The position numbers and the translations under genes are program-made. 64,000 bases of DNA. Source: Shigella phage Silverhawkium. The stretch lies in the sequence record MK562505; one strand, given 5' to 3'. A model generated the notes under the pieces. It did not search any database and had not been told where the DNA came from. It saw only the letters and a list, made by a program, of their open reading frames with translations. Shown in pieces: positions 34,725 through 40,976 of the stretch (position 1 is its first letter; each line of letters begins with the position of its first letter).

Positions 34725-34800
34725 TGGAGTATCGGAAGGGACTCGAACCCTCATAAACCTGTTTTGCAGACAGGAACATATCCATTTCTGTCACCGATAC
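34725..34800 (-). tRNA. tRNA-Cys (anticodon GCA)
   Basis: Manual fold: 7-bp acceptor GTATCGG/CCGATAC, anticodon loop CTGCAAA, T-loop TTCGAGT, CCA encoded. Confidence 0.65.
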
Positions 34801-34806
34801 ATAATT

Positions 34807-34899
34807 TGGAGGAAGATACCAGACTTGAACTGGTACGCCGATTTCTCGGTTACTGGCAGTTTAGCAAACTGCTCCCTTACCTGTTAGGGTTAATCTTCC
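34807..34899 (-). tRNA. tRNA-Ser (anticodon GCT), long variable arm
   Basis: Acceptor GGAAGAT/ATCTTCC, anticodon loop TTGCTAA, long variable arm, T-loop TTCAAGT. Confidence 0.65.
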
Positions 34900-34901
34900 A
34901 G

Positions 34902-35699
34902 TTATTTGTTAAGTGCATCTTTCATTTCTGGTGTAGAGATAGAGTCAATAACACCAGTCTTACAAGCATCATCAAACCAGTCTGGTAAGACATTTGCAAG
35001 AAAACCGTTAATGTTTGTCTTAAGATACTCAGCCATCAATGCTACTTCATCAGCAATCATCTGTGTGACTTCTGAAGCGTATGCAGTAATCTTTGACATA
35101 CCTTCATTAATCGCTGTAACAGCTTGTGAGGCTAAATCTTCGATTGTATCAAGCCCTTGGTCAATTGCATCTTGTAAGTCGCTTAGAACGCCGTTTACAG
35201 CGTCTATGGAGGTGTTTATAATCTCCATAGCTTTGTTACCATACTCAGTAGCAACTCCCATAATCCCACTGAATGGCGTACAACCAACTTGTTCACCTGC
35301 TGCTCCCATTACATTAGAGTAGCCTTTTGCCACCTGCATTCGTTGAGAGAACTCATCTACAGATTTCTGACCATACTCAGTCAGTGTAGTGGTTGTTGAA
35401 GTTGTACTGCCAAGACTTGTTGTGAAGCTACTTAAGAGTGCTGCTGTTAATCCAGCCGCAATAAGCTTATCTTGCACAGTCGGGTCTGTTACGGAACTAA
35501 TAGAGTTTACTAATGACTGAGAGGCAGCAATTGTACCACCAAGGACTGCTGCACCAGTAATAAGAGGGTTTGAGAAACCATTACCAGTTTTAAGGAGATT
35601 AAAAATCTCTTTACTTTGTTCTGTCATCTCTTTCATTATGCACCTATAAAGTTGGTAGCCCATCGGGATTTGAACCCTGTTCTCATGTTTTTCAGACAA
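34902..35699 (-). CDS. hypothetical Ala/Ser/Thr-rich protein embedded in tRNA island (265 aa)
   Basis: Long ORF between tRNA genes; low-complexity A/S/T-rich N-terminal half. Confidence 0.4.
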   Translation of the reverse strand: MSEKHENRVQIPMGYQLYRCIMKEMTEQSKEIFNLLKTGNGFSNPLITGAAVLGGTIAASQSLVNSISSVTDPTVQDKLIAAGLTAALLSSFTTSLGSTTSTTTTLTEYGQKSVDEFSQRMQVAKGYSNVMGAAGEQVGCTPFSGIMGVATEYGNKAMEIINTSIDAVNGVLSDLQDAIDQGLDTIEDLASQAVTAINEGMSKITAYASEVTQMIADEVALMAEYLKTNINGFLANVLPDWFDDACKTGVIDSISTPEMKDALNK

Positions 35700-35729
35700 G
35701 CGCTTTAACCATATAAGCTAATTGAGCTA
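35655..35729 (-). tRNA. probable tRNA, isotype uncertain (possibly Phe, anticodon GAA)
   Basis: T-loop TTCAAAT with 3-bp GGG/CCC stem, D-loop ATATGGTTA, loop CTGAAAA; acceptor register ambiguous. Confidence 0.35.
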
Positions 35730-35735
35730 TTAAAT

Positions 35736-35812
35736 TGGGGTGACCTACGGGAATCGAACCCGTATAGACCATGTTCACAGCATGGGTCATTATCCATTTA
35801 TGATAAGGCCAC
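35736..35812 (-). tRNA. tRNA-His (anticodon GTG)
   Basis: Acceptor GTGGCCT/AGGTCAC, anticodon loop CTGTGAA, T-arm ACGGG-TTCGATT-CCCGT, CCA encoded. Confidence 0.7.
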
Positions 35813-35843
35813 ATTTAAGGACTCTCGTAAGAACCCTTAGAAG

Positions 35844-35919
35844 TGGCAGCAGTATAAGGATTTGAACCTTAATCTTTCAGCTTCAGAGGCTGGAGCATTG
35901 CCAGTTATGCTATACTGCT
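35844..35919 (-). tRNA. tRNA-Gln (anticodon CTG)
   Basis: Acceptor AGCAGTA/TACTGCT, D-arm GCAT/ATGC, anticodon loop CTCTGAA. Confidence 0.65.
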
Positions 35920-35925
35920 AATATT

Positions 35926-36004
35926 TGGTACTCCATATCGGATTCGAACCGATACATAACACAGATTTTAAATCTGGCCTCTCTGCCAATTGGAGTAATG
36001 GAGC
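35926..36004 (-). tRNA. tRNA with Leu-type anticodon TAA but short variable arm
   Basis: Acceptor pairs, A14/G18G19/A21 D-loop, anticodon stem CAGA/TCTG with loop TTTAAAA, T-arm ATCGG-TTCGAAT-CCGAT, A73. Confidence 0.5.
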
Positions 36005-36006
36005 CT

Positions 36007-36082
36007 TGGCGGGGGATGATGGAATTGAACCATCTTCTTCGATTTCAAAGACCGAGGTTTTAACCTTGTAAACTAATCCCCT
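36007..36082 (-). tRNA. tRNA-Gln (anticodon TTG)
   Basis: D-arm GTTT/AAAC, anticodon loop CTTTGAA, T-arm GATGG-TTCAATT-CCATC; A1-C72 mismatch. Confidence 0.65.
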
Positions 36083-36090
36083 ATTAAATT

Positions 36091-36167
36091 TGGTGCAGAA
36101 TAGAGGATTCGAACCCCTAACAAACAACTTCGTAGATTGCTGTTCTATCCATTTGAACTAATTCTGC
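36091..36167 (-). tRNA. tRNA-Arg (anticodon ACG)
   Basis: Acceptor GCAGAAT/ATTCTGC perfect, D-arm GTTC/GAAC, anticodon loop CTACGAA. Confidence 0.7.
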
Positions 36168-36168
36168 A

Positions 36169-36411
36169 TTATCCGATAAGGACACCATAAAGTTTTAACT
36201 CTTCATTAGTGTCTCTTCTGCTTAAGACTGACTCTCTAAAATCTTTAGCAATATTCTTTCGAGATTCCTGTCTAGCTCTCTTCTTATCTCTTCTGAGAAA
36301 GCGTTTACGATGGTCTGTACGCCATTTGTAATAATCTTCTTCACCATCATGTGCTGCACAGCAGCCACAACTTGCAATTTCAACTTTACCGTGTCTACCA
36401 TAAGGTTTCAT
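36169..36411 (-). CDS. small basic Cys-cluster protein (80 aa) embedded in tRNA island
   Basis: ORF with SCGCCAAHD cysteine cluster and Arg/Lys-rich C-terminus; abuts tRNA-Arg. Confidence 0.35.
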   Translation of the reverse strand: MKPYGRHGKVEIASCGCCAAHDGEEDYYKWRTDHRKRFLRRDKKRARQESRKNIAKDFRESVLSRRDTNEELKLYGVLIG

Positions 36412-36427
36412 AGGAATCTCCTAAAAT

Positions 36428-36505
36428 TGGTACTCCAAGACGGATTCGAACCGTCACTAATACAAGGTTTGAGCTTGCATCCTCTACCAATTGGGATACT
36501 GGAGC
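36428..36505 (-). tRNA. tRNA with Leu-type anticodon CAA but short variable arm
   Basis: Anticodon stem GCAAG/CTTGT with loop CTCAAAC, T-arm GACGG-TTCGAAT-CCGTC, A73, CCA encoded. Confidence 0.5.
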
Positions 36506-36506
36506 A

Positions 36507-36581
36507 TGGTACTCGCTGAAGAACTTGAATCTTCTTCACCAACTTGTAAGGATGGGGTTTTACCGTATAAACTAAGCGAGC
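36507..36581 (-). tRNA. tRNA-Val (anticodon TAC)
   Basis: Acceptor GCTCGCT/AGCGAGT, D-arm GTTT/AAAC, loop CTTACAA, T-arm GAAGA-TTCAAGT-TCTTC. Confidence 0.6.
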
Positions 36582-36676
36582 TTTGAAGAGGTCTGAAGCT
36601 GTGCCGCTAACTCAACTCCGTGGAATTTGTTACGGTCTTCAGTTGACTCAAGCGGTCTTTCACTTGACCTCAAAAT

Positions 36677-36752
36677 TGGTGCTCCCACAAGGATTCGAAC
36701 CCTGATAAGTTGCTTACAAGGCAACCGTAATAGCCAATTATACGATAAGAGC
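36677..36752 (-). tRNA. tRNA-Thr (anticodon TGT)
   Basis: Anticodon arm GTTGC-CTTGTAA-GCAAC perfect; T-loop TTCGAAT. Confidence 0.7.
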
Positions 36753-36758
36753 ATTATT

Positions 36759-36833
36759 TGGAGCATCCAGAGGGAATCGAACCCTCAACCTCAGTTTGGA
36801 AGACTGTAATTTTCCCGTTTAAACTATGGATGC
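36759..36833 (-). tRNA. tRNA-Gly (anticodon TCC)
   Basis: Acceptor GCATCCA/TGGATGC perfect, loop CTTCCAA, T-arm GAGGG-TTCGATT-CCCTC. Confidence 0.7.
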
Positions 36834-36839
36834 ACTAAT

Positions 36840-36914
36840 TGGTGGAGTCACCGAGAATTGAACTCGGTTCCCAAGTTTGCAAAACTCGAATTTTAACCAT
36901 ATAAACTATGACCC
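36840..36914 (-). tRNA. tRNA-Ala (anticodon TGC)
   Basis: G3-U70 wobble pair in acceptor stem (Ala identity element), loop TTTGCAA, T-arm CCGAG-TTCAATT-CTCGG. Confidence 0.7.
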
Positions 36915-36921
36915 CATTGTT

Positions 36922-36997
36922 TGGTACAGGTGGAGGGAATTGAACCCATCGTCTTACTGATTAAGAGTCAGCCGCATAACCATTTTGCTACACCTGC
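36922..36997 (-). tRNA. tRNA-Lys (anticodon CTT)
   Basis: Acceptor GCAGGTG/CACCTGT, loop CTCTTAA; T-stem only 3 GC pairs. Confidence 0.55.
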
Positions 36998-37004
36998 ATT
37001 AATT

Positions 37005-37081
37005 TGGTACACCTAGAGAGATTCGAACTCACACTGAGCAGATTCTAAGTCTGCTGCCTCTTCCAATTGGGCTATAGGTGC
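37005..37081 (-). tRNA. tRNA with Leu-type anticodon TAG but short variable arm
   Basis: Anticodon arm GCAGA-CTTAGAA-TCTGC perfect, 5-nt variable loop, T-loop TTCGAAT, A73. Confidence 0.5.
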
Positions 37082-37331
37082 ATTAAATCTTTGTAGAGAA
37101 CTGCTAAGACGCCAAAGCAACAATGGTATCAAATGCCTTAACAATTCTCTAAAAAGACCTATTGGCCTTTGCATAGTCTTGCTTAATCCGGTGACTAGAA
37201 CCTTTGGAGAGCTTGATACTATCTCTTCTCCGTGACACCTACTAGGTGCTTTCTCAACATCGTGTACGCCAATACACGGAGGGAAACCTAACGCAACATT
37301 CGAACGGAGCGCGGCTTTAAATCTTATTAGG

Positions 37332-37419
37332 CGGTAAGTAAAGGAGTCGAACCCTCACCGTATCTCTACAGTGGCAACTGTTTTCAAGACAGTTTGGCTA
37401 CCATTAGCCGCTACCTACC
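37332..37419 (-). tRNA. tRNA-Ser (anticodon TGA), long variable arm, CCA not encoded
   Basis: Anticodon arm ACTGT-CTTGAAA-ACAGT perfect, about 20-nt variable arm, T-loop TTCGACT. Confidence 0.65.
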
Positions 37420-37432
37420 CCTAATAAGACTT

Positions 37433-37515
37433 TGGCATGGGACGTAGGATTCGAACCCATTTGAAACGGTTTTGGAGGCCGTCGCACATGCCTTAGTGTC
37501 TTAACATCGTCCCAT
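37433..37515 (-). tRNA. probable tRNA-Trp (anticodon CCA) with atypical extra nucleotides 5' of the D-arm
   Basis: Perfect 7-bp acceptor ATGGGAC/GTCCCAT, anticodon loop CTCCAAA, T-loop TTCGAAT; 83 nt. Confidence 0.4.
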
Positions 37516-37680
37516 ACTATATTTCGAAGCTTACCCTGTTATCTCAACACTGTCAAGCTTCTTCTCAGATTATTTACATGTTCTGGAAAACATGAGATAC
37601 AGACCACCTCCTTATGAGATTGACTCTTTCAAGTCAATGCGGAGACCCATAAAGGTCGTCGTAGTAATCTGCTAACTATT

Positions 37681-37756
37681 TGGCACTCCGTATAGGACTC
37701 GAACCTATATATGAACTGTTTAGAAGACAGTTGCCTATCCTTTAGACTAACGGAGC
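37681..37756 (-). tRNA. tRNA-Arg (anticodon TCT)
   Basis: Anticodon arm ACTGT-CTTCTAA-ACAGT perfect; T-arm ATAGG-TTCGAGT-CCTAT perfect. Confidence 0.7.
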
Positions 37757-38003
37757 ATTATCTTTAAAGGCTCTCTTAGAAAACCCTTAAAGATGCCCAC
37801 TTTATTAATCATACCGTGGGCTAGTACGCCAAATTCTTTAACAGGGAGTTGGAATACCCTGCTGGTGTTTAGCCTATTAAGCTACTGCCAGAAAAACATT
37901 ATCGTTTGCATTTATTTTTAAGTTTTTAAAATAGACGCTACGCTAACGAAAACTAAGGTTATCTTAAAGTGGTCACATCTGAATGTCAACAACTTTATGA
38001 AAT

Positions 38004-38078
38004 TGGTTGTAGGTGAGGGTATCGAACCCTCTTCTAACGGTTATCAGCCGTTTGCATTACCATTTATGCTAACCCACA
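38004..38078 (-). tRNA. tRNA-Ile (anticodon GAT)
   Basis: D-arm GCAT/ATGC, anticodon arm AACGG-CTGATAA-CCGTT, T-arm GAGGG-TTCGATA-CCCTC. Confidence 0.7.
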
Positions 38079-38080
38079 AT

Positions 38081-38157
38081 TGGAGGTTCAGGTGGGAATC
38101 GAACCCACATTCATAGGGCTTATGAAACCCTTGCATTACCTTATCTGCGACTGAACC
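38081..38157 (-). tRNA. tRNA-Met (anticodon CAT)
   Basis: Acceptor GGTTCAG/CTGAACC perfect, loop TTCATAA with G-C-rich anticodon stem. Confidence 0.65.
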
Positions 38158-38161
38158 ATAT

Positions 38162-38237
38162 TGGTAGAAGTGGAGGGATTCGAACCCGTCGCCTGTCAGA
38201 TTAAAAGTCTGCCGCATCACCATTCTGCTACACTTCC
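38162..38237 (-). tRNA. tRNA-Lys (anticodon TTT)
   Basis: Loop CTTTTAA, T-loop TTCGAAT with 3-bp GGG/CCC stem as in tRNA-Lys(CTT). Confidence 0.6.
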
Positions 38238-38424
38238 ATTAAATCATCTTTGCAGTAACCTACGCAAACCTTGCTAAAGGGTTTGTAGAGTCATCTCTTA
38301 GTAAGCTAATCTAGAATCATGCTCAAGAGACTCTTCGGCACTCATGGGACGACTGGTTAGCTCCATAAGTCACTGCAAAGGTGATTACCAGACCGTTGTT
38401 ATCTTAAGTGCTTCCATTACACCA

Positions 38425-38525
38425 ACACGCCGTAACGTGTGAAGGAATCGAACCTTCGCCTTTTCTTTACCAGAGAAATAGATTGTTTAACTTGCTGTAA
38501 ACGGTCTTCTGTAAATTGTTGGAAC
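38425..38525 (-). ncRNA. orphan tRNA-like element (T-arm only) of unknown function
   Basis: Perfect T-arm GAAGG-TTCGATT-CCTTC at 38441-38457 but no matching acceptor, D or anticodon arms; overlaps repeated 24-nt motif. Confidence 0.3.
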
Positions 38526-38659
38526 CAGACCAAGTTTTAAATTTTTCAAAATTAAATTGGCTTGAAATTTTAAGTGACTTGCTGTATTTGGTCTTCTGCT
38601 CCTTTAAAGAATACTCGCAAGAACTCTTTAAGGGAGGGGCTAAATAGCCCTCTCAAAAT

Positions 38660-38736
38660 TGGCGGCTACGATGAGACTTGAACTCACATCATCTCCCGTG
38701 ACAGGGGAGTATTTTCTCCAGTTAAACTACATAGCC
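38660..38736 (-). tRNA. tRNA-Asp (anticodon GTC)
   Basis: Anticodon arm CTCCC-CTGTCAC-GGGAG perfect; T-loop TTCAAGT. Confidence 0.7.
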
Positions 38737-38741
38737 TTTAT

Positions 38742-38829
38742 TGGTGTGCCGTGTAGGAGTCGAACCTACCGAGTCTCAATGACAAGGGATTTACAGTCCC
38801 CACCGCTACCATCTACGGGATAACGACAC
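38742..38829 (-). tRNA. tRNA-Tyr (anticodon GTA), long variable arm
   Basis: 3-bp D-stem, loop CTGTAAA, long variable arm, T-arm GTAGG-TTCGACT-CCTAC. Confidence 0.65.
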
Positions 38830-38838
38830 ATTTAAATT

Positions 38839-38915
38839 TGGCGGTTAGTCAGGGATTCGAACCCTGTACCATTCGGTTAACAGCCGACCGCACATGCCTT
38901 ATGTGCTTCCTAACC
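38839..38915 (-). tRNA. tRNA-Asn (anticodon GTT)
   Basis: D-arm GCAC-ATAAGGCAT-GTGC, loop CTGTTAA, T-arm CAGGG-TTCGAAT-CCCTG. Confidence 0.65.
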
Positions 38916-38998
38916 ATGTTAGTATTACCAGACCGTATCTTTTCATTTTTTCCGATAAAAAATTTTAAGTGTTTGCTGTAAACGGCCTTCTGTAAATT

Positions 38999-39074
38999 TG
39001 GAGGCGGGTGTAGGAGTCGAACCTACCGATACCATGCTAATGAGACATGTGAGACGCCCTTTCTCTATACCCGC
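38999..39074 (-). tRNA. tRNA-Met or Ile2 (anticodon CAT), second copy, with 1:72 mismatch
   Basis: Anticodon arm CATGT-CTCATTA-GCATG; T1-C72 mismatch reminiscent of initiator-type acceptor end. Confidence 0.5.
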
Positions 39075-39162
39075 AATTCTTAATGACCAGACCAAATCTT
39101 TTTTGGATTTCTATGCGCGAAATTGAAAAGTTTGTTTGCTGTAATTGGTCTTCTGTCAAAAC

Positions 39163-39240
39163 TGGCATTCCCGAAGGGACTTGAACCCTCAAACCACACC
39201 TTGAAAGGGTGTTGACTTTACCTAATTTGTCTACGGGAAT
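39163..39240 (-). tRNA. tRNA-Glu (anticodon TTC)
   Basis: Acceptor ATTCCCG/CGGGAAT perfect, anticodon arm ACACC-CTTTCAA-GGTGT perfect. Confidence 0.7.
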
Positions 39241-39246
39241 ATAATT

Positions 39247-39326
39247 TGGTCTCCGTTGAAGGATTTGAACCTTCGACCCCTTGCTCCCAAAGCAAGTGCT
39301 GCTAAACCAAACTGAGCTAAACGGAG
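39247..39326 (-). tRNA. tRNA-Pro (anticodon TGG)
   Basis: Acceptor CTCCGTT/AACGGAG perfect, anticodon arm CTTGC-TTTGGGA-GCAAG, T-arm GAAGG-TTCAAAT-CCTTC. Confidence 0.7.
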
Positions 39327-39491: not shown

Positions 39492-40976
39492 TTACCAATC
39501 GTAACGTTCAGACATAACAGCTTTAAGCATTACGCTAATTGGGTCAAACTTCTCACCACCAAGTAGTGCTTTTAAGGTGGCTGGAGAGAAGCCAGATACC
39601 ATAGCTACTCCGTTATCCTTTACAGATACTTCGCAGTTTCCACCACGATTAGCTAGATACCAGAAAACTAACTGAGGCATCTCATAACCAGACTCTTTAT
39701 ACTTACGACGAATTTCTTCGAAGTTAGTATTACCTCGCTGACCATCAACCTGATTGAACTGCATATCAGAGAATATAATAAGCTTACTTGGCATTGCTTC
39801 TTGAGTCAAGTTATTTTTAACACCAATCTCAAGGATTCGGTCAAAAGCTGCTTGAATGTTTGTTGAACCATACTCAACATTCTTCATAACTTGTCGAATA
39901 CGAGTCTCCAGAGAGCCACTCAGGGAGATAAAGTATGGTCTAGTAGAGTAAACCATTAACTCATCTTTGAAGCATCCTGTGTTGCGTTCTGCTACGTATA
40001 GGGCAAGTGATACACCAATATCTAAAGCAGTTACTGAGCCGTGTTTCTCCCAAGTCATAGAGTCAGATACATCAGCCATGCAAAGGATGTTTTCACCATC
40101 TCTCATCCAGTTTGGCAAAGCTTTCCATTGCTCATTAGCAACATCTGCTCGACCATACCGTACAGACTTCGTAATGTCATAAGGGTAGACAGCACCAGCA
40201 TTGATTTTCTCAGTACCTTCTGACAAAGCCTTTACATATTCTGCATAACGTTCTCCACCTTTTCTGGTGAAAAGCTTCTGGTAACGTGCAGCAGCAAGTG
40301 AAGGTAGTTTGCTATAGTCAATCTCACCAAATGAGTTTGCAGAGATTTTCTGCTCAACTGTATCTGATAGCACTGACAGCATCAGTCGGTACTCTTTCTG
40401 GCTTAGATTTGCAAACTTGCAAAAACGTTTTACAAAATCCATATGACGCTTTTTAACCCTTGGGAGCCACTTAGCAGCCAATGCTGAAGTATCTGGGTTA
40501 AGCAGACCTTGCTCAATATGCTTGAAAGCATCTGTCTCATAACGAGTACCCACAAAGATTTTGAAGTCATCAAAACGACCTAGTTCAGAAATCTTATCCA
40601 TAATACGGAGTACTTGGAACTCGTCAATCATATTTGTTCGGATTGCTTCGGTCATTACAGTCCTGAATGCCTTACGTTCGCCCATACCCTCTCGTGCATC
40701 TCGCATATGAAGGAGGATTCGAACCGCTACATCAACATCCTCTCGCAGAGCCTTGTAAAACAAGTTTGGTAGTGCCTCTGTAGAGTTGCGGCTAGAGCCA
40801 GCAGCCTTATAGAAATCTACCAGTGCAGACATTGAGGACAGGTGGTTTACAGCACCATTCTCAGTCAAACCAGCGTGTAAGTTCGCATGGTTAAATAATT
40901 CGCTCATAATATTCTCTCTTCTCTCATTGTTGTTGGTTAGACAGACTCTAGAGTAACCAATAAAGTCTGTCAACAC
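39492..40976 (-). CDS. von Willebrand factor A (vWA) domain protein, about 490 aa; Ro60/TROVE-like architecture is a hypothesis
   Basis: C-terminal MIDAS-type motif DVSDSM (DxSxS); long helical N-terminal region; function not assignable from sequence. Confidence 0.6.
   Translation of the reverse strand: MLTDFIGYSRVCLTNNNERRENIMSELFNHANLHAGLTENGAVNHLSSMSALVDFYKAAGSSRNSTEALPNLFYKALREDVDVAVRILLHMRDAREGMGERKAFRTVMTEAIRTNMIDEFQVLRIMDKISELGRFDDFKIFVGTRYETDAFKHIEQGLLNPDTSALAAKWLPRVKKRHMDFVKRFCKFANLSQKEYRLMLSVLSDTVEQKISANSFGEIDYSKLPSLAAARYQKLFTRKGGERYAEYVKALSEGTEKINAGAVYPYDITKSVRYGRADVANEQWKALPNWMRDGENILCMADVSDSMTWEKHGSVTALDIGVSLALYVAERNTGCFKDELMVYSTRPYFISLSGSLETRIRQVMKNVEYGSTNIQAAFDRILEIGVKNNLTQEAMPSKLIIFSDMQFNQVDGQRGNTNFEEIRRKYKESGYEMPQLVFWYLANRGGNCEVSVKDNGVAMVSGFSPATLKALLGGEKFDPISVMLKAVMSERYDW

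What the first reader, a model, noticed from the sequence alone, without database searches (positions are those of the whole stretch)
37082..38659. ORF-free 150-250 nt spacers inside the tRNA island with internal inverted repeats
Five spacers (37082-37331, 37516-37680, 37757-38003, 38238-38440, 38526-38659) hold no tRNA and no ORF of 60 aa or more, yet contain stem-loops such as ctccgtg...cacggag, catgttctggaaaacatg, ttgact..agtcaa and gaggggc..gccctctc. tRNA clusters in large phages often also encode small stable RNAs, so these are candidate ncRNA genes, or tRNA pseudogenes decayed beyond recognition.
Basis: inference. Interest (0 to 1): 0.45.

Follow-up and report, generated by a model that had tools for sequence, protein, structure and literature searches.

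The report
Phage tRNA-island spacers encode structured RNAs
The "empty" gaps between the tRNA genes of this Felix-O1-like phage hold conserved non-coding RNA genes, including a headless copy of the bacterial ribosome-rescue RNA (tmRNA) shared by hundreds of unrelated phages, and tRNA-mimicking Y RNAs lying beside a Ro60-like protein gene.

Summary
The window is an Ounavirinae (Mooglevirus-like) phage, and its tRNA island is on the minus strand. The five spacers are real, hold no ORF of 60 aa or more, and are as conserved among relatives as the neighbouring protein gene or the tRNAs. They are not decayed tRNAs.

- **Spacer 3.** It holds a sigma-70 promoter and a 164-nt RNA (37954-37791) built like the mRNA-like half of tmRNA. 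It has the invariant U-5/A-4 frame-setting bases, a GCA resume codon, a 10-codon tag (ANDNVFLAVA) and two covariation-supported pseudoknots, but no tRNA-like domain. It occurs, almost always unannotated, in 774 phage records of at least five phage groups. The tag frame is kept through synonymous changes.
- **Spacers 4 and 5, and two spacers upstream.** They hold four hairpin RNAs sharing a CAGAAGRCC..UACAGCAA / GGUCUGG stem. One (38511-38388) carries a permuted tRNA-like module (V, T-arm, closed acceptor, D-arm), which is the YrlA Y-RNA architecture. The adjacent gene folds as Ro60. The same RNA-plus-gene pairing recurs in distant phages.
- **Spacers 1 and 2 and the rest of spacer 4.** These are lineage-specific conserved RNAs of unknown role.

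How the tag frame is decoded remains unknown.

The parts
37961..37989 (-). Sigma-70-type promoter inside spacer 3 (TTGACA-17 nt-TAAGAT), ending 6 nt upstream of the tmRNA-like RNA.
   Evidence: scores it 10 of 12. Unrelated lineages carry a -10 box (TAGATT, TATAGT or TAAGAT) 5-12 nt upstream of the same RNA.
37791..37954 (-). tmRNA-derived 'mRNA-like domain' RNA with no tRNA-like domain. Order of elements: 5' AGUUUUCG, small hairpin, helix, UAAAU, tag frame, stop-codon helix, pseudoknot A, pseudoknot B.
   Evidence: Model R1 scores it 143.9 bits, E 2.6e-34, as the single copy in the window. It is present in 774 phage records. Rfam tmRNA models score below threshold.
37877..37909 (-). Tag reading frame GCA AAC GAU AAU GUU UUU CUG GCA GUA GCU UAA, encoding ANDNVFLAVA plus a stop; a second stop (UAG) follows at 37876-37874.
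   Evidence: Coordinates are. Across 99 elements there are 23 distinct frames, all of 10 codons plus a stop, with synonymous variants.
37760..37794 (-). 17-bp hairpin. It is the reduced remnant of the 'cassette' that follows the tmRNA-like RNA in Felix-like and T1-like phages.
37564..37672 (-). Spacer 2 structured RNA closed by the stem CAGAUUA/UAAUCUG. It includes the conserved CAUGUUUUCCAGAACAUG hairpin and a clade-specific inserted hairpin.
   Evidence: Folding z-score -2.9.
37528..37556 (-). Promoter-like site TTGACA-17 nt-TAAGCT in spacer 2, upstream of tRNA-Trp.
   Evidence: Read from the sequence. It is conserved as TTTACA/TTGACA..TAAGCT in relatives. The scan did not list it.
37433..37515 (-). 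Unannotated tRNA-Trp(CCA) with an extended D arm and an encoded CCA end.
   Evidence: ARAGORN misses it. Relatives show compensatory changes in the anticodon and D stems.
37082..37329 (-). Spacer 1: a ~250-nt conserved RNA. Its ~120-nt core is near-invariant, with an exactly conserved stretch at 37252-37164. The terminal hairpins vary.
   Evidence: 61 predicted pairs, of which 5 show compensatory change. Identity to relatives is 79-89%.
38242..38386 (-). Spacer 4 RNA closed by a 21-bp long-range stem (38386-38366 with 38262-38242).
   Evidence: (inverted repeat I4). It is full length only in Mooglevirus-like genomes and a few Felix-like genomes.
38388..38511 (-). Y4, a YrlA-like Y RNA. Elements: closing stem CAGAAGACCGU/ACGGUCUGG; UUACAGCAA box; V hairpin 38478-38462; T arm 38457-38441; closed acceptor-like hairpin 38440-38425; D arm 38422-38408.
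   Evidence: In one search, 16 of 23 pairs show compensatory changes.
38525..38598 (-). Y3: a Y-RNA-like hairpin with the same stem and box and an AU-rich insert.
   Evidence: (D11, D16).
38601..38654 (-). Two hairpins at the 5' end of spacer 5 (GAGAGGGCUAUUUAGCCCCUC and CUUAAAGAG..CUUUAAAGG), 95-98% conserved.
   Evidence: One search shows an A:U to G:C compensatory change.
38928..38992 (-).
39087..39155 (-).
39495..40907 (-). Ro60-like protein gene (471 aa; DUF2828 + DUF7788; MIDAS motif DVSGSM), directly upstream of the island on the same strand.
   Evidence: the eight best Foldseek matches in the PDB are all Ro60.

Best explanation
The spacers are genes for structured non-coding RNAs that share transcription units with the phage tRNAs. 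There are three kinds.

(1) Spacer 3 has its own sigma-70 promoter. It makes a ~164-nt RNA descended from the messenger half of tmRNA: the frame-setting UA, a GCA resume codon, a 10-codon SsrA-like degron tag, a helix presenting the stop codon, and two H-type pseudoknots. The tRNA-like half is missing. The tag frame is under coding selection, so the RNA most likely serves as an alternative template for trans-translation, or otherwise manipulates host ribosome rescue. That it is decoded is shown only indirectly, and the route into the ribosome is unknown.

(2) Four hairpin RNAs (Y1-Y4) share a conserved stem and a UACAGCAA box. Y4 carries a circularly permuted tRNA mimic. These are the Y RNAs of the adjacent Ro60-like protein. 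By analogy with bacterial and Thermus-phage Ro60-Y RNA particles, they would dock on the protein and link it to a nuclease or to tRNA-recognising factors. Binding is inferred, not shown.

(3) Spacers 1 and 2 and the stem-closed RNA of spacer 4 are Ounavirinae-specific stable RNAs, or processing and regulatory modules, whose function is unknown.
For: Conservation. The spacers are 79-98% identical to relatives whose Ro-like gene is 76-78% identical.

Spacer 3.
- Distribution: it occurs in 774 phage records, including Ounavirinae, Ackermannviridae, Drexlerviridae, Schitoviridae, SSU5-like phages and others. It is in at least 120 IMG/VR contigs and in 780 of 5,426 E. coli genomes, on prophages and phage-plasmids. 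Model R1 finds one copy per locus.
- Structure: 91% of cells are paired, against 32-48% in the slid controls. Seventeen pairs have two-sided changes. Both pseudoknot helices are 100% paired with compensatory changes.
- Tag frame: there are 23 distinct sequences, each of exactly 10 codons plus a stop. The last codon is always Ala (GCC, GCG or GCU). The stop is UAA, UAG or UGA. Synonymous D, E, N, V, L and F variants occur.
- The equivalents of U85 and A86 are invariant (PMC2481249).
- A promoter lies immediately upstream in several lineages.

Y RNAs.
- The AlphaFold model of the neighbouring protein (pLDDT 87) matches only Ro60 structures at full length.
- The Y4 architecture V-T-AS-D is found by unconstrained folding in about 10 divergent units. 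RNAalifold finds compensatory changes in 16 of 23 pairs.
- Within the window, each 5' arm matches its own 3' arm (AA/UU or GU/AC), reading.
- Five or more such units follow the homologous gene in a 143-kb phage and in a 90-kb phage at about 50-55% protein identity.
- The Bas63 homologue gp130 is reported as Ro60-like and as a counter to the Ppl defence system (doi 10.1101/2024.10.10.617714).
Against: - No expression data exist, so the RNA ends are inferred.
- The tmRNA-like RNA has no acceptor stem, T arm or CCA. ARAGORN finds no tmRNA. No partner strand for its 5' end was found. No SmpB is encoded in the window. How the frame could be translated is therefore unexplained.
- The Y RNAs lack the GNCGAAN0-1G motif of known bacterial Y RNAs and are not hit by Rfam YrlA. 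Individually, the short stems are only marginally better than shuffled controls.
- The spacer 1 core never varies, so its fold is untested.
- Part of the conservation could reflect RNase processing signals for the flanking tRNAs.
Confidence: 0.6

Rival explanations
1. The spacer 3 RNA is not translated. It acts as a decoy or antisense regulator of host trans-translation. Its invariant 5' end (A/G)GUUUUCG pairs with the tag codons GAC GAA AAC U of host ssrA. Alternatively, its tmRNA-like body soaks up a tmRNA-binding factor such as S1 or SmpB.
For: - There is 10 nt of perfect complementarity to E. coli ssrA nt 96-106, at the same site in Ounavirinae, T1-like and N4-like copies. The Aeromonas phage copy is shifted to GAAAACUAC.
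- The 5' end is single-stranded and lies at the start of the promoter-proximal transcript.
- A precedent exists: the CDS-less tmRNA of phage DS6A inhibits host tmRNA (PMC11915505).
Against: - A 10-mer match somewhere is reached by 8-9 of 200 shuffles, so the match is weak and was noticed post hoc.
- A pure decoy does not explain the strict 10-codon frame, the always-Ala last codon with three synonymous codons, or the interchange of all three stop codons.
Confidence: 0.2
2. The spacers are mainly precursor-processing and transcription signals for the tRNAs: RNase III, E or P sites, internal promoters and spacers. No free-standing RNA has a function, and conservation reflects processing constraints only.
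For: - Promoters lie in spacers 2 and 3.
- Long closing stems such as the 21-bp stem of spacer 4 and the 17-bp hairpin at 37794-37760 resemble RNase III substrates.
- The Y1 and Y2 hairpins sit immediately after tRNA 3' ends.
Against: - The spacer 3 RNA occurs in phages and prophages with no tRNA beside it.
- Pseudoknots, a coding-constrained frame and a permuted tRNA mimic are not needed for processing.
- In L129 the Y units precede the first tRNA as a block directly after the Ro60-like gene.
Confidence: 0.1
3. These are decayed tRNA pseudogenes and a dead fragment of captured host ssrA. This combines the reader's second option with a relic reading of spacer 3.
For: - Rfam's tRNA model scores 35.5 bits at 38496-38433.
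- Spacer 3 resembles tmRNA only in part.
Against: - In the Rfam alignment the acceptor is mismatched and the D arm truncated. The permuted reading is kept by compensatory changes in divergent phages.
- The spacer 3 element has diverged into 23 frame variants and several stem variants while keeping every helix and the frame.
- The pattern is in only 3 of 185,579 bacterial species genomes, and never beside a tmRNA or tRNA.
Confidence: 0.04
4. The spacers encode micro-proteins. One example is the 7-codon ORF after AAGGAGG in spacer 2; others are the 25-59-aa ORFs in the ORF list.
For: - An SD-like AAGGAGG lies 13 nt before the ATG of ATGTTTTCCAGAACATGTAAATAA in spacer 2.
- Several short ORFs are listed.
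Against: - That ATG lies inside a conserved hairpin, and the spacing is poor.
- The substitution pattern in spacers 1, 2 and 5 shows invariant blocks and paired changes, not third-position wobble.
- Most listed ORFs overlap tRNAs or lie on the opposite strand.
Confidence: 0.04

Closest known systems
tmRNA (SsrA), including two-piece/permuted tmRNAs and the CDS-less tmRNA of mycobacteriophage DS6A
   Same: - The bases at -5 and -4 (U, A) upstream of a GCA resume codon match tmRNA.
- The tag has 10 codons of the ANDxxxLxxA type, ending in Ala, with the stop codon in a helix loop.
- H-type pseudoknots follow the frame.
- Rfam's permuted and alpha tmRNA models align the resume region.
   Different: - It has no tRNA-like domain: no acceptor stem, G3:U70, T arm or CCA.
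- It has two pseudoknots instead of three downstream, and a plain hairpin instead of PK1.
- It is about 165 nt long, against about 360 nt.
- It is encoded only by phages and prophages.
- It is the mirror image of the DS6A form, which keeps the tRNA-like part and lacks the frame.
YrlA/YrlB bacterial and phage Y RNAs bound by Ro60 (Rsr); Yrl1/Yrl2 of Thermus phage phiLo
   Same: - They are encoded next to a Ro60-type protein, with several paralogues per locus.
- The 5' and 3' ends form a stem.
- One member carries V, T, closed acceptor-like and D stem-loops in exactly the YrlA order, with tRNA-invariant bases (PMC4201824).
   Different: - The protein belongs to the DUF2828/DUF7788 family, not Pfam TROVE.
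- The 5' strand carries CAGAAGRCC plus a UACAGCAA box instead of GNCGAAN0-1G/CGAA.
- Rfam YrlA does not detect them.
- They are interleaved with genuine tRNA genes.
Stable RNAs of unknown function in the T4 and T5 tRNA clusters (T4 species 1 and 2 / RNAs C and D; T5 RNA I and RNA II). This comparison rests on my own recollection, not on a tool result.
   Same: They are small stable non-tRNA RNAs encoded between phage tRNA genes and co-transcribed with them.
   Different: No sequence or structural relation was tested here. Those RNAs have no reported tmRNA-like frame or Ro60 partner.

Membership tests
tmRNA (Rfam RF00023 and clan; ARAGORN definition) | A tRNA-like domain: 5'/3' acceptor stem with G3:U70, a T arm and a 3' CCA. 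| tested here: not met
   ARAGORN reports no tmRNA in the window or in related loci. No tmRNA-family model reaches its gathering score in the window, and only weak tmRNA-family matches appear in the e-value scans. The only spare T arm in the window is in Y4. No strand complementary to the 5' end follows a T loop.
tmRNA (Rfam RF00023 and clan; ARAGORN definition) | A resume codon preceded by the conserved U85/A86-type frame-setting bases. | tested here: met
   UAAAU-GCA is invariant in 42 of 42 aligned elements. The role of U85 and A86 is taken from PMC2481249.
tmRNA (Rfam RF00023 and clan; ARAGORN definition) | A short tag frame with no start codon, an Ala-rich hydrophobic C-terminus, and evidence that it is conserved as a coding sequence. 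| tested here: met
   There are 23 distinct sequences, all of 10 codons plus a stop, with synonymous variants. The final codon is always Ala, and all three stop codons are used.
tmRNA (Rfam RF00023 and clan; ARAGORN definition) | Pseudoknots flanking the frame. | tested here: inconclusive
   Two downstream H-type pseudoknots are supported by compensatory changes. Upstream there is a hairpin rather than a demonstrable PK1.
Permuted (two-piece) tmRNA, Rfam RF04321 | An acceptor piece followed by a coding piece, scoring above the gathering threshold. | tested here: not met
   The score is 34.7 bits against a gathering score of 47. The 'acceptor piece' of the alignment is simply the T arm of the neighbouring tRNA-Ile.
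Y RNA / YrlA (Rfam RF02553; Chen et al. 2014) | Encoded adjacent to a Ro60 orthologue. | tested here: met
   The Ro60 fold of the adjacent gene is shown. The linkage is repeated in L129 and L132.
Y RNA / YrlA (Rfam RF02553; Chen et al. 2014) | A stem formed by the 5' and 3' ends, enclosing V, T, closed acceptor-like (AS) and D stem-loops. | tested here: met
   16 of 23 pairs show compensatory changes.
Y RNA / YrlA (Rfam RF02553; Chen et al. 2014) | The GNCGAAN0-1G (CGAA) Ro-binding motif in the 5' strand, and a match to the family covariance model. | tested here: not met
   The 5' strand is CAGAAGRCC followed by UUACAGCAA. Rfam YrlA gives no hit at E up to 10 on 38380-38530.
Y RNA / YrlA (Rfam RF02553; Chen et al. 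2014) | Physical binding to the Ro60 protein. | not testable with these tools
   This needs RIP, EMSA or a structure.
   The Rfam alignment has a mismatched acceptor and a truncated D arm. ARAGORN is silent. The permuted order is the one that is conserved.
Ro60/TROVE protein (for the neighbouring gene) | A HEAT-repeat ring plus a vWA domain with a MIDAS motif. | tested here: met
   The Foldseek top eight matches are Ro60, E 3.7e-8 to 1.1e-5, aligned at full length. DVSGSM is invariant.
Ro60/TROVE protein (for the neighbouring gene) | A sequence match to Pfam TROVE, or to solved Ro60 sequences. | tested here: not met
   Pfam gives only DUF2828 and DUF7788. phmmer against PDB sequences finds nothing.

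The most novel reading that the evidence does not exclude
The spacer 3 RNA is the template half of a split, phage-controlled trans-translation system. A tRNA-like entry module is supplied in trans: host tmRNA-SmpB, a tRNA-like cassette, or a processed Y RNA. The phage would thereby redirect ribosome rescue so that stalled products receive a phage-specified tag (AANDNVFLAVA and its variants) instead of the host SsrA degron. This strategy would be shared by hundreds of virulent and temperate enterobacterial phages.
Probability: 0.25. Interest if true: 0.92.

Novelty: new variant of a known kind. Interest (0 to 1): 0.78.

Why it matters
**tmRNA-like RNA.** No tmRNA relative that keeps the tag template but lacks the tRNA-like domain turned up in the literature I could search or in Rfam 15. 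This RNA is present, and almost always unannotated, in hundreds of sequenced therapeutic and model phages: Felix O1-like, Vi1/CBA120-like, T1-like and N4-like phages, and phage-plasmids. If its frame is decoded, phages manipulate ribosome rescue in a previously unrecognised way. That idea is directly testable by mass spectrometry for the predicted tag.

**Y RNAs.** The Y-RNA-like family supplies the missing RNA partners for the DUF2828 Ro60-like protein. The Bas63 homologue of that protein was reported to counter the Ppl defence system, and its authors only guessed that some 'tRNAs' might be Y RNAs. The coordinates and consensus given here make that guess testable.

**Annotation.** These phage 'tRNA islands' should be annotated as mixed ncRNA islands. 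One tRNA-Trp is also missing from current annotations.

Tried and rejected
- **Rfam.** Gathering and e-value scans of the window and of 14 related loci gave only tRNAs, sub-threshold tmRNA hits, one STnc100 hit and one int-alpA hit elsewhere. No family covers the spacers.
- **Complete or two-piece tmRNA.** I looked for a tRNA-like partner using ARAGORN, a search for a T loop followed by a strand able to pair with GUUUUCG, a scan for all spare T arms, and tblastn with a recalled SmpB sequence. All were negative.
- **Bacterial origin of the spacer 3 RNA.** A pattern scan of 185,579 species genomes gave 3 hits. None lies next to a tmRNA or tRNA gene.
- **An AUG-initiated frame overlapping the resume codon.** It was rejected because its length varies from 5 to 9 codons between phages (reading).
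- **C/G motifs pairing across the tRNAs as leader-trailer stems.** This was rejected because each 5' arm matches the 3' arm downstream of it, not the one upstream (AA/UU against GU/AC).
- **Sequence search of the Ro-like protein against the PDB.** phmmer found nothing. Only the fold search was informative.
- **Whole-molecule duplex folding of the element with ssrA.** The result was uninformative.
- **Statistics on single Y stems against shuffled arms.** These were only marginal. The case rests on the multi-unit comparison instead.
- **Hammerhead-like core in a T1-like cassette (L121).** Rfam did not confirm it.
Full report
**Identity and layout.** The window matches Ounavirinae phages. The best match is Escherichia phage vB_EcoM_3HA14 (Mooglevirus) at 94.6% identity, and 297 phage records match the region. 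ARAGORN finds 26 tRNA genes, all on the minus strand, from 34725 to 39326. At curated thresholds Rfam finds only tRNAs. Strong sigma-70 promoters lie at 39473-39445 and 39382-39353, upstream of the island. The gene immediately upstream on the same strand (39495-40907) is a DUF2828 + DUF7788 protein.

**Checking the observation.** No ORF of 60 aa or more lies in the five spacers. The quoted inverted repeats are present. Single-sequence folding gives z-scores of -1.9, -2.9, -4.6 and -3.0.
- 37515-37433 is a real tRNA-Trp(CCA) with a long D arm. Its anticodon stem (ACGG/CCGU to UAAG/CUUA) and its D stem covary among relatives.
- 38441-38525 is not a tRNA, as shown under "Spacers 4 and 5" below.

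All five spacers are conserved in the 21-22 Ounavirinae loci I collected. Against Felixounavirus-like genomes whose Ro-like gene is 76-78% identical at the DNA level, the figures are as follows.

| Segment | Identity |
|---|---|
| Spacer 1 | 79-89% |
| Spacer 2, conserved part | 91-96% |
| Spacer 3 | 88-91% |
| Y4 | 86-95% |
| Y3 | 88-94% |
| Two 5' hairpins of spacer 5 | 95-98% |
| tRNAs | 74-100% |

**Spacer 3: a tmRNA-like RNA without a tRNA-like domain.** A promoter, TTGACA-17 nt-TAAGAT (37989-37961), is followed by AGUUUUCG..., then ...AUAAAU GCA AAC GAU AAU GUU UUU CUG GCA GUA GCU UAA UAG. This reads ANDNVFLAVA, against ANDENYALAA for E. coli SsrA (ssrA was fetched).
- *Rfam.* The permuted and alpha tmRNA models align exactly this resume region, but below threshold: 34.7 bits against 47, and 20.3 against 50. 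The "acceptor" part of the first alignment falls on the T arm of tRNA-Ile.
- *Distribution.* A sensitive BLAST search unexpectedly found the same ~170 nt in unrelated phages. With a T1-like copy as query, 774 phage records match. They include Ounavirinae, Ackermannviridae, Drexlerviridae, Schitoviridae, SSU5-like phage-plasmids and phages of Vibrio, Acinetobacter and Aeromonas, and almost all are unannotated. The element is in 780 of 5,426 complete E. coli genomes, mostly on 90-115-kb plasmids and prophages, and almost always without an annotated feature. The same pattern occurs in only 3 of 185,579 bacterial species genomes, with no tRNA or tmRNA beside it. It is therefore a phage element, not part of any bacterial ssrA.

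**Structure of the spacer 3 RNA.** I aligned 42 non-redundant copies and counted pairs for a hand-drawn structure with two pseudoknots.
- 91% of cells are paired, against 32-48% when the partners are slid.
- Seventeen pairs show two-sided changes.
- 108 compensated cells are seen, against 6-21 in the slid controls.
- Pseudoknot A pairs the hairpin-loop bases CCGA with UCGG downstream. Seven sequences, including the window, have CCAA/UUGG instead.
- Pseudoknot B pairs CGCACU with GGUGUG in the loop of the last hairpin. Variants are CGUAC/GUAUG (six sequences), CGCAU/AUGUG and CGCAG/CUGUG. RNAalifold found this helix on its own.
- The last hairpin stem changes completely between lineages, while the rest of its loop (AUUAAUAA) is nearly invariant.

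A covariance model (R1) finds exactly one copy in the window (37954-37791, 143.9 bits). It also finds one copy in each of 99 sources.

**Evidence that the frame is decoded.** Among those 99 copies there are 23 different frame sequences. Every one has 10 sense codons followed by a stop. Codon 10 is always Ala but uses GCC, GCG or GCU. The stop is UAA, UAG or UGA. Synonymous variants occur for Asp, Glu, Asn, Val, Leu and Phe. The bases at -5 and -4 (U, A) are invariant. They correspond to U85 and A86, which set the frame on E. coli tmRNA (PMC2481249). There is no Shine-Dalgarno sequence. The overlapping AUG frame varies in length.

These are signatures of a tag template. Yet no tRNA-like domain is present, and no partner could be found. 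I commit to "tmRNA-derived template or modulator of trans-translation" as the most likely function. The entry route into the ribosome remains the open question.

A secondary lead concerns the invariant 5' end. It is perfectly complementary over 10 nt to ssrA tag codons 3-6. However, 4-5% of shuffles do as well.

I found no description of such an RNA in the searchable literature. The nearest reported case is the opposite one, the CDS-less tmRNA of phage DS6A (PMC11915505).

**Spacers 4 and 5: Y-RNA-like RNAs.** A direct-repeat family (D10, D11, D16) resolves into four units on the minus strand. Each has CAGAAGRCC(NN) followed by a UACAGCAA box on the 5' side, and (NN)GGUCUGG on the 3' side. The units are Y1 39155-39087, Y2 38992-38928, Y3 38598-38525 and Y4 38511-38388.
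- *Which arms pair.* The two variable bases match within each unit: AA/UU in Y1 and Y3, and GU/AC in Y2 and Y4. Each 5' arm therefore pairs with the next 3' arm, not across a tRNA.
- *Y4 contents.* In order, Y4 encloses a V hairpin; a T arm (GAAGG UUCGAUU CCUUC); a closed hairpin (ACACGU UACG GCGUGU); then U, G; and a D arm (GUGU AAUGGAA GCAC).
- *Known architecture.* This is the V-T-AS-D order that defines YrlA Y RNAs (PMC4201824).
- *The tRNA reading.* Rfam's tRNA alignment of the same region has a mismatched acceptor and a truncated D arm.
- *Comparative support.* Unconstrained folding gives the same five-element structure for units from the window, five relatives, L132 and L129. RNAalifold on a plain MAFFT alignment of ten units predicts 23 pairs, of which 16 have compensatory changes. 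The acceptor-like hairpin has a different sequence in almost every lineage.

**The protein partner.** The 471-aa neighbour belongs to PHROG 850, "RNA-binding protein", and has an invariant DVSGSM MIDAS motif. Its AlphaFold model (pLDDT 87.4, pTM 0.88) matches eight Ro60 structures at full length. These come from Xenopus, human and Thermus phage phiLo, with E-values of 3.7e-8 to 1.1e-5. Below them come only isolated vWA domains. Sequence searches do not see this relationship.

A 2024 preprint reports that the Bas63 homologue gp130 resembles Ro60 and counters the Ppl defence system. Its authors speculate that "some tRNA genes ... are possibly Y RNAs". They identified no such RNA.

Homologues at about 50-55% identity are also followed by tRNA islands.
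- In a 143-kb phage (L129), a promoter and five tandem units lie between the gene and the first tRNA. They carry AGAAG-type stems and the UACAGCAA box, and three of them have T-AS-D modules.
- In a 90-kb phage (L132), at least five units are interleaved with tRNAs.

Ro60 with Y RNA is established in other phages (PMC12135203, PMC4201824). These RNAs are therefore a divergent new branch of a known kind. They lack the GNCGAAN0-1G motif and are invisible to Rfam YrlA.

**Spacers 1 and 2 and the rest of spacer 4.**
- *Spacer 1* is a 250-nt element. Its ~120-nt core is near-invariant in 15 relatives, and its terminal hairpins vary with a few compensatory changes: 5 of 61 predicted pairs. The fold of the core is untested.
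- *Spacer 2* holds a ~110-nt stem-closed RNA, followed by a TTGACA-17 nt-TAAGCT promoter-like site for tRNA-Trp.
- *Spacer 4* holds a 145-nt RNA closed by a 21-bp stem. It is present at full length only in the Mooglevirus-like clade and a few Felix-like genomes.
- None of the three has a match outside Ounavirinae or in Rfam. I class them as lineage-specific stable or processing RNAs of unknown function.

**Verdict.** The ncRNA interpretation is right, and the pseudogene alternative is wrong. They comprise a widespread, unannotated, tRNA-domain-less tmRNA relative with a coding-constrained tag frame, and the likely Y RNAs of a phage Ro60-like anti-defence protein.

Noticed in passing
window 37433-37515 (-): A tRNA-Trp(CCA) with an extended D arm and an encoded CCA end is missed by ARAGORN, and several related GenBank records do not list it. 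Its D arm resembles that of the neighbouring tRNA-Asn (38915-38839).
   Followed up: partly
L002, L008, L015, L113, L121 and other loci (T1-like phages and prophages); L003 and L111 (Ackermannviridae); L004 (N4-like): The tmRNA-like RNA sits in ORF-free arrays of 'cassettes' closed by a conserved, covarying stem. In T1-like phages the stem is ACAACAGGUAAGAGCAUU ... AGUGCUCUUUCCGUUGUGGUG. The inserts vary, and several end in a T arm next to the 3' arm. The nature of these cassettes is unknown.
   Followed up: partly
L121, downstream of the element: One cassette insert contains CUGACGAGUCC..GGACGAAACGC, which resembles a hammerhead ribozyme core. No Rfam hammerhead hit appeared at the gathering threshold.
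   Followed up: partly
window 37681-37756 (-); L118, L025, L127: A tRNA-Arg(UCU), which reads the rare AGA codon, lies just downstream of the tmRNA-like RNA in Ounavirinae and also in T1-like arrays.
   Followed up: no
window 37947-37954 (-) against E. coli ssrA nt 96-106 (L133): The invariant 5' end of the tmRNA-like RNA is complementary over 10 nt to host SsrA tag codons 3-6. This is only weakly above chance: 8-9 of 200 shuffles do as well.
   Followed up: partly
L116 2223-2436 (-): The Ackermannviridae-type ncRNA island also contains a match to Rfam STnc100 (48.7 bits against a gathering score of 47). STnc100 is a prophage-associated enterobacterial sRNA.
   Followed up: no
L015 264-330 (-): An int-alpA RNA (Rfam RF02996, 43.7 bits) lies at the end of a prophage cassette array that carries the tmRNA-like RNA.
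   Followed up: no
E. coli plasmids of 85-115 kb: Most E. coli matches to the element lie on plasmids of phage-plasmid size, and many cover only the 5' third of the RNA. These may be truncated or divergent copies.
   Followed up: no
window 36169-36411 (-) and 34902-35699 (-): Two protein genes lie inside the tRNA island. One is an 80-aa Cys-rich, basic protein (PHROG 10765). The other is a 265-aa DUF7217 protein. A DUF7217 gene also follows the tRNA island in L132.
   Followed up: no
Relatives of the window: Michonne, Sf16, SeKF_63: HNH homing endonuclease genes are inserted at different places in the tRNA island of some relatives. Spacer lengths differ by 100-700 nt between close relatives.
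   Followed up: no
L108, L110, L112 (Felix-like) and L109, L121 (T1-like): A second small module, CCCUUAUGGGGCUUGGCUUAAAUGCA, is shared between Felix-like and T1-like phages inside differently sequenced closing stems. In the window it has been deleted, leaving the hairpin at 37794-37760.
   Followed up: partly
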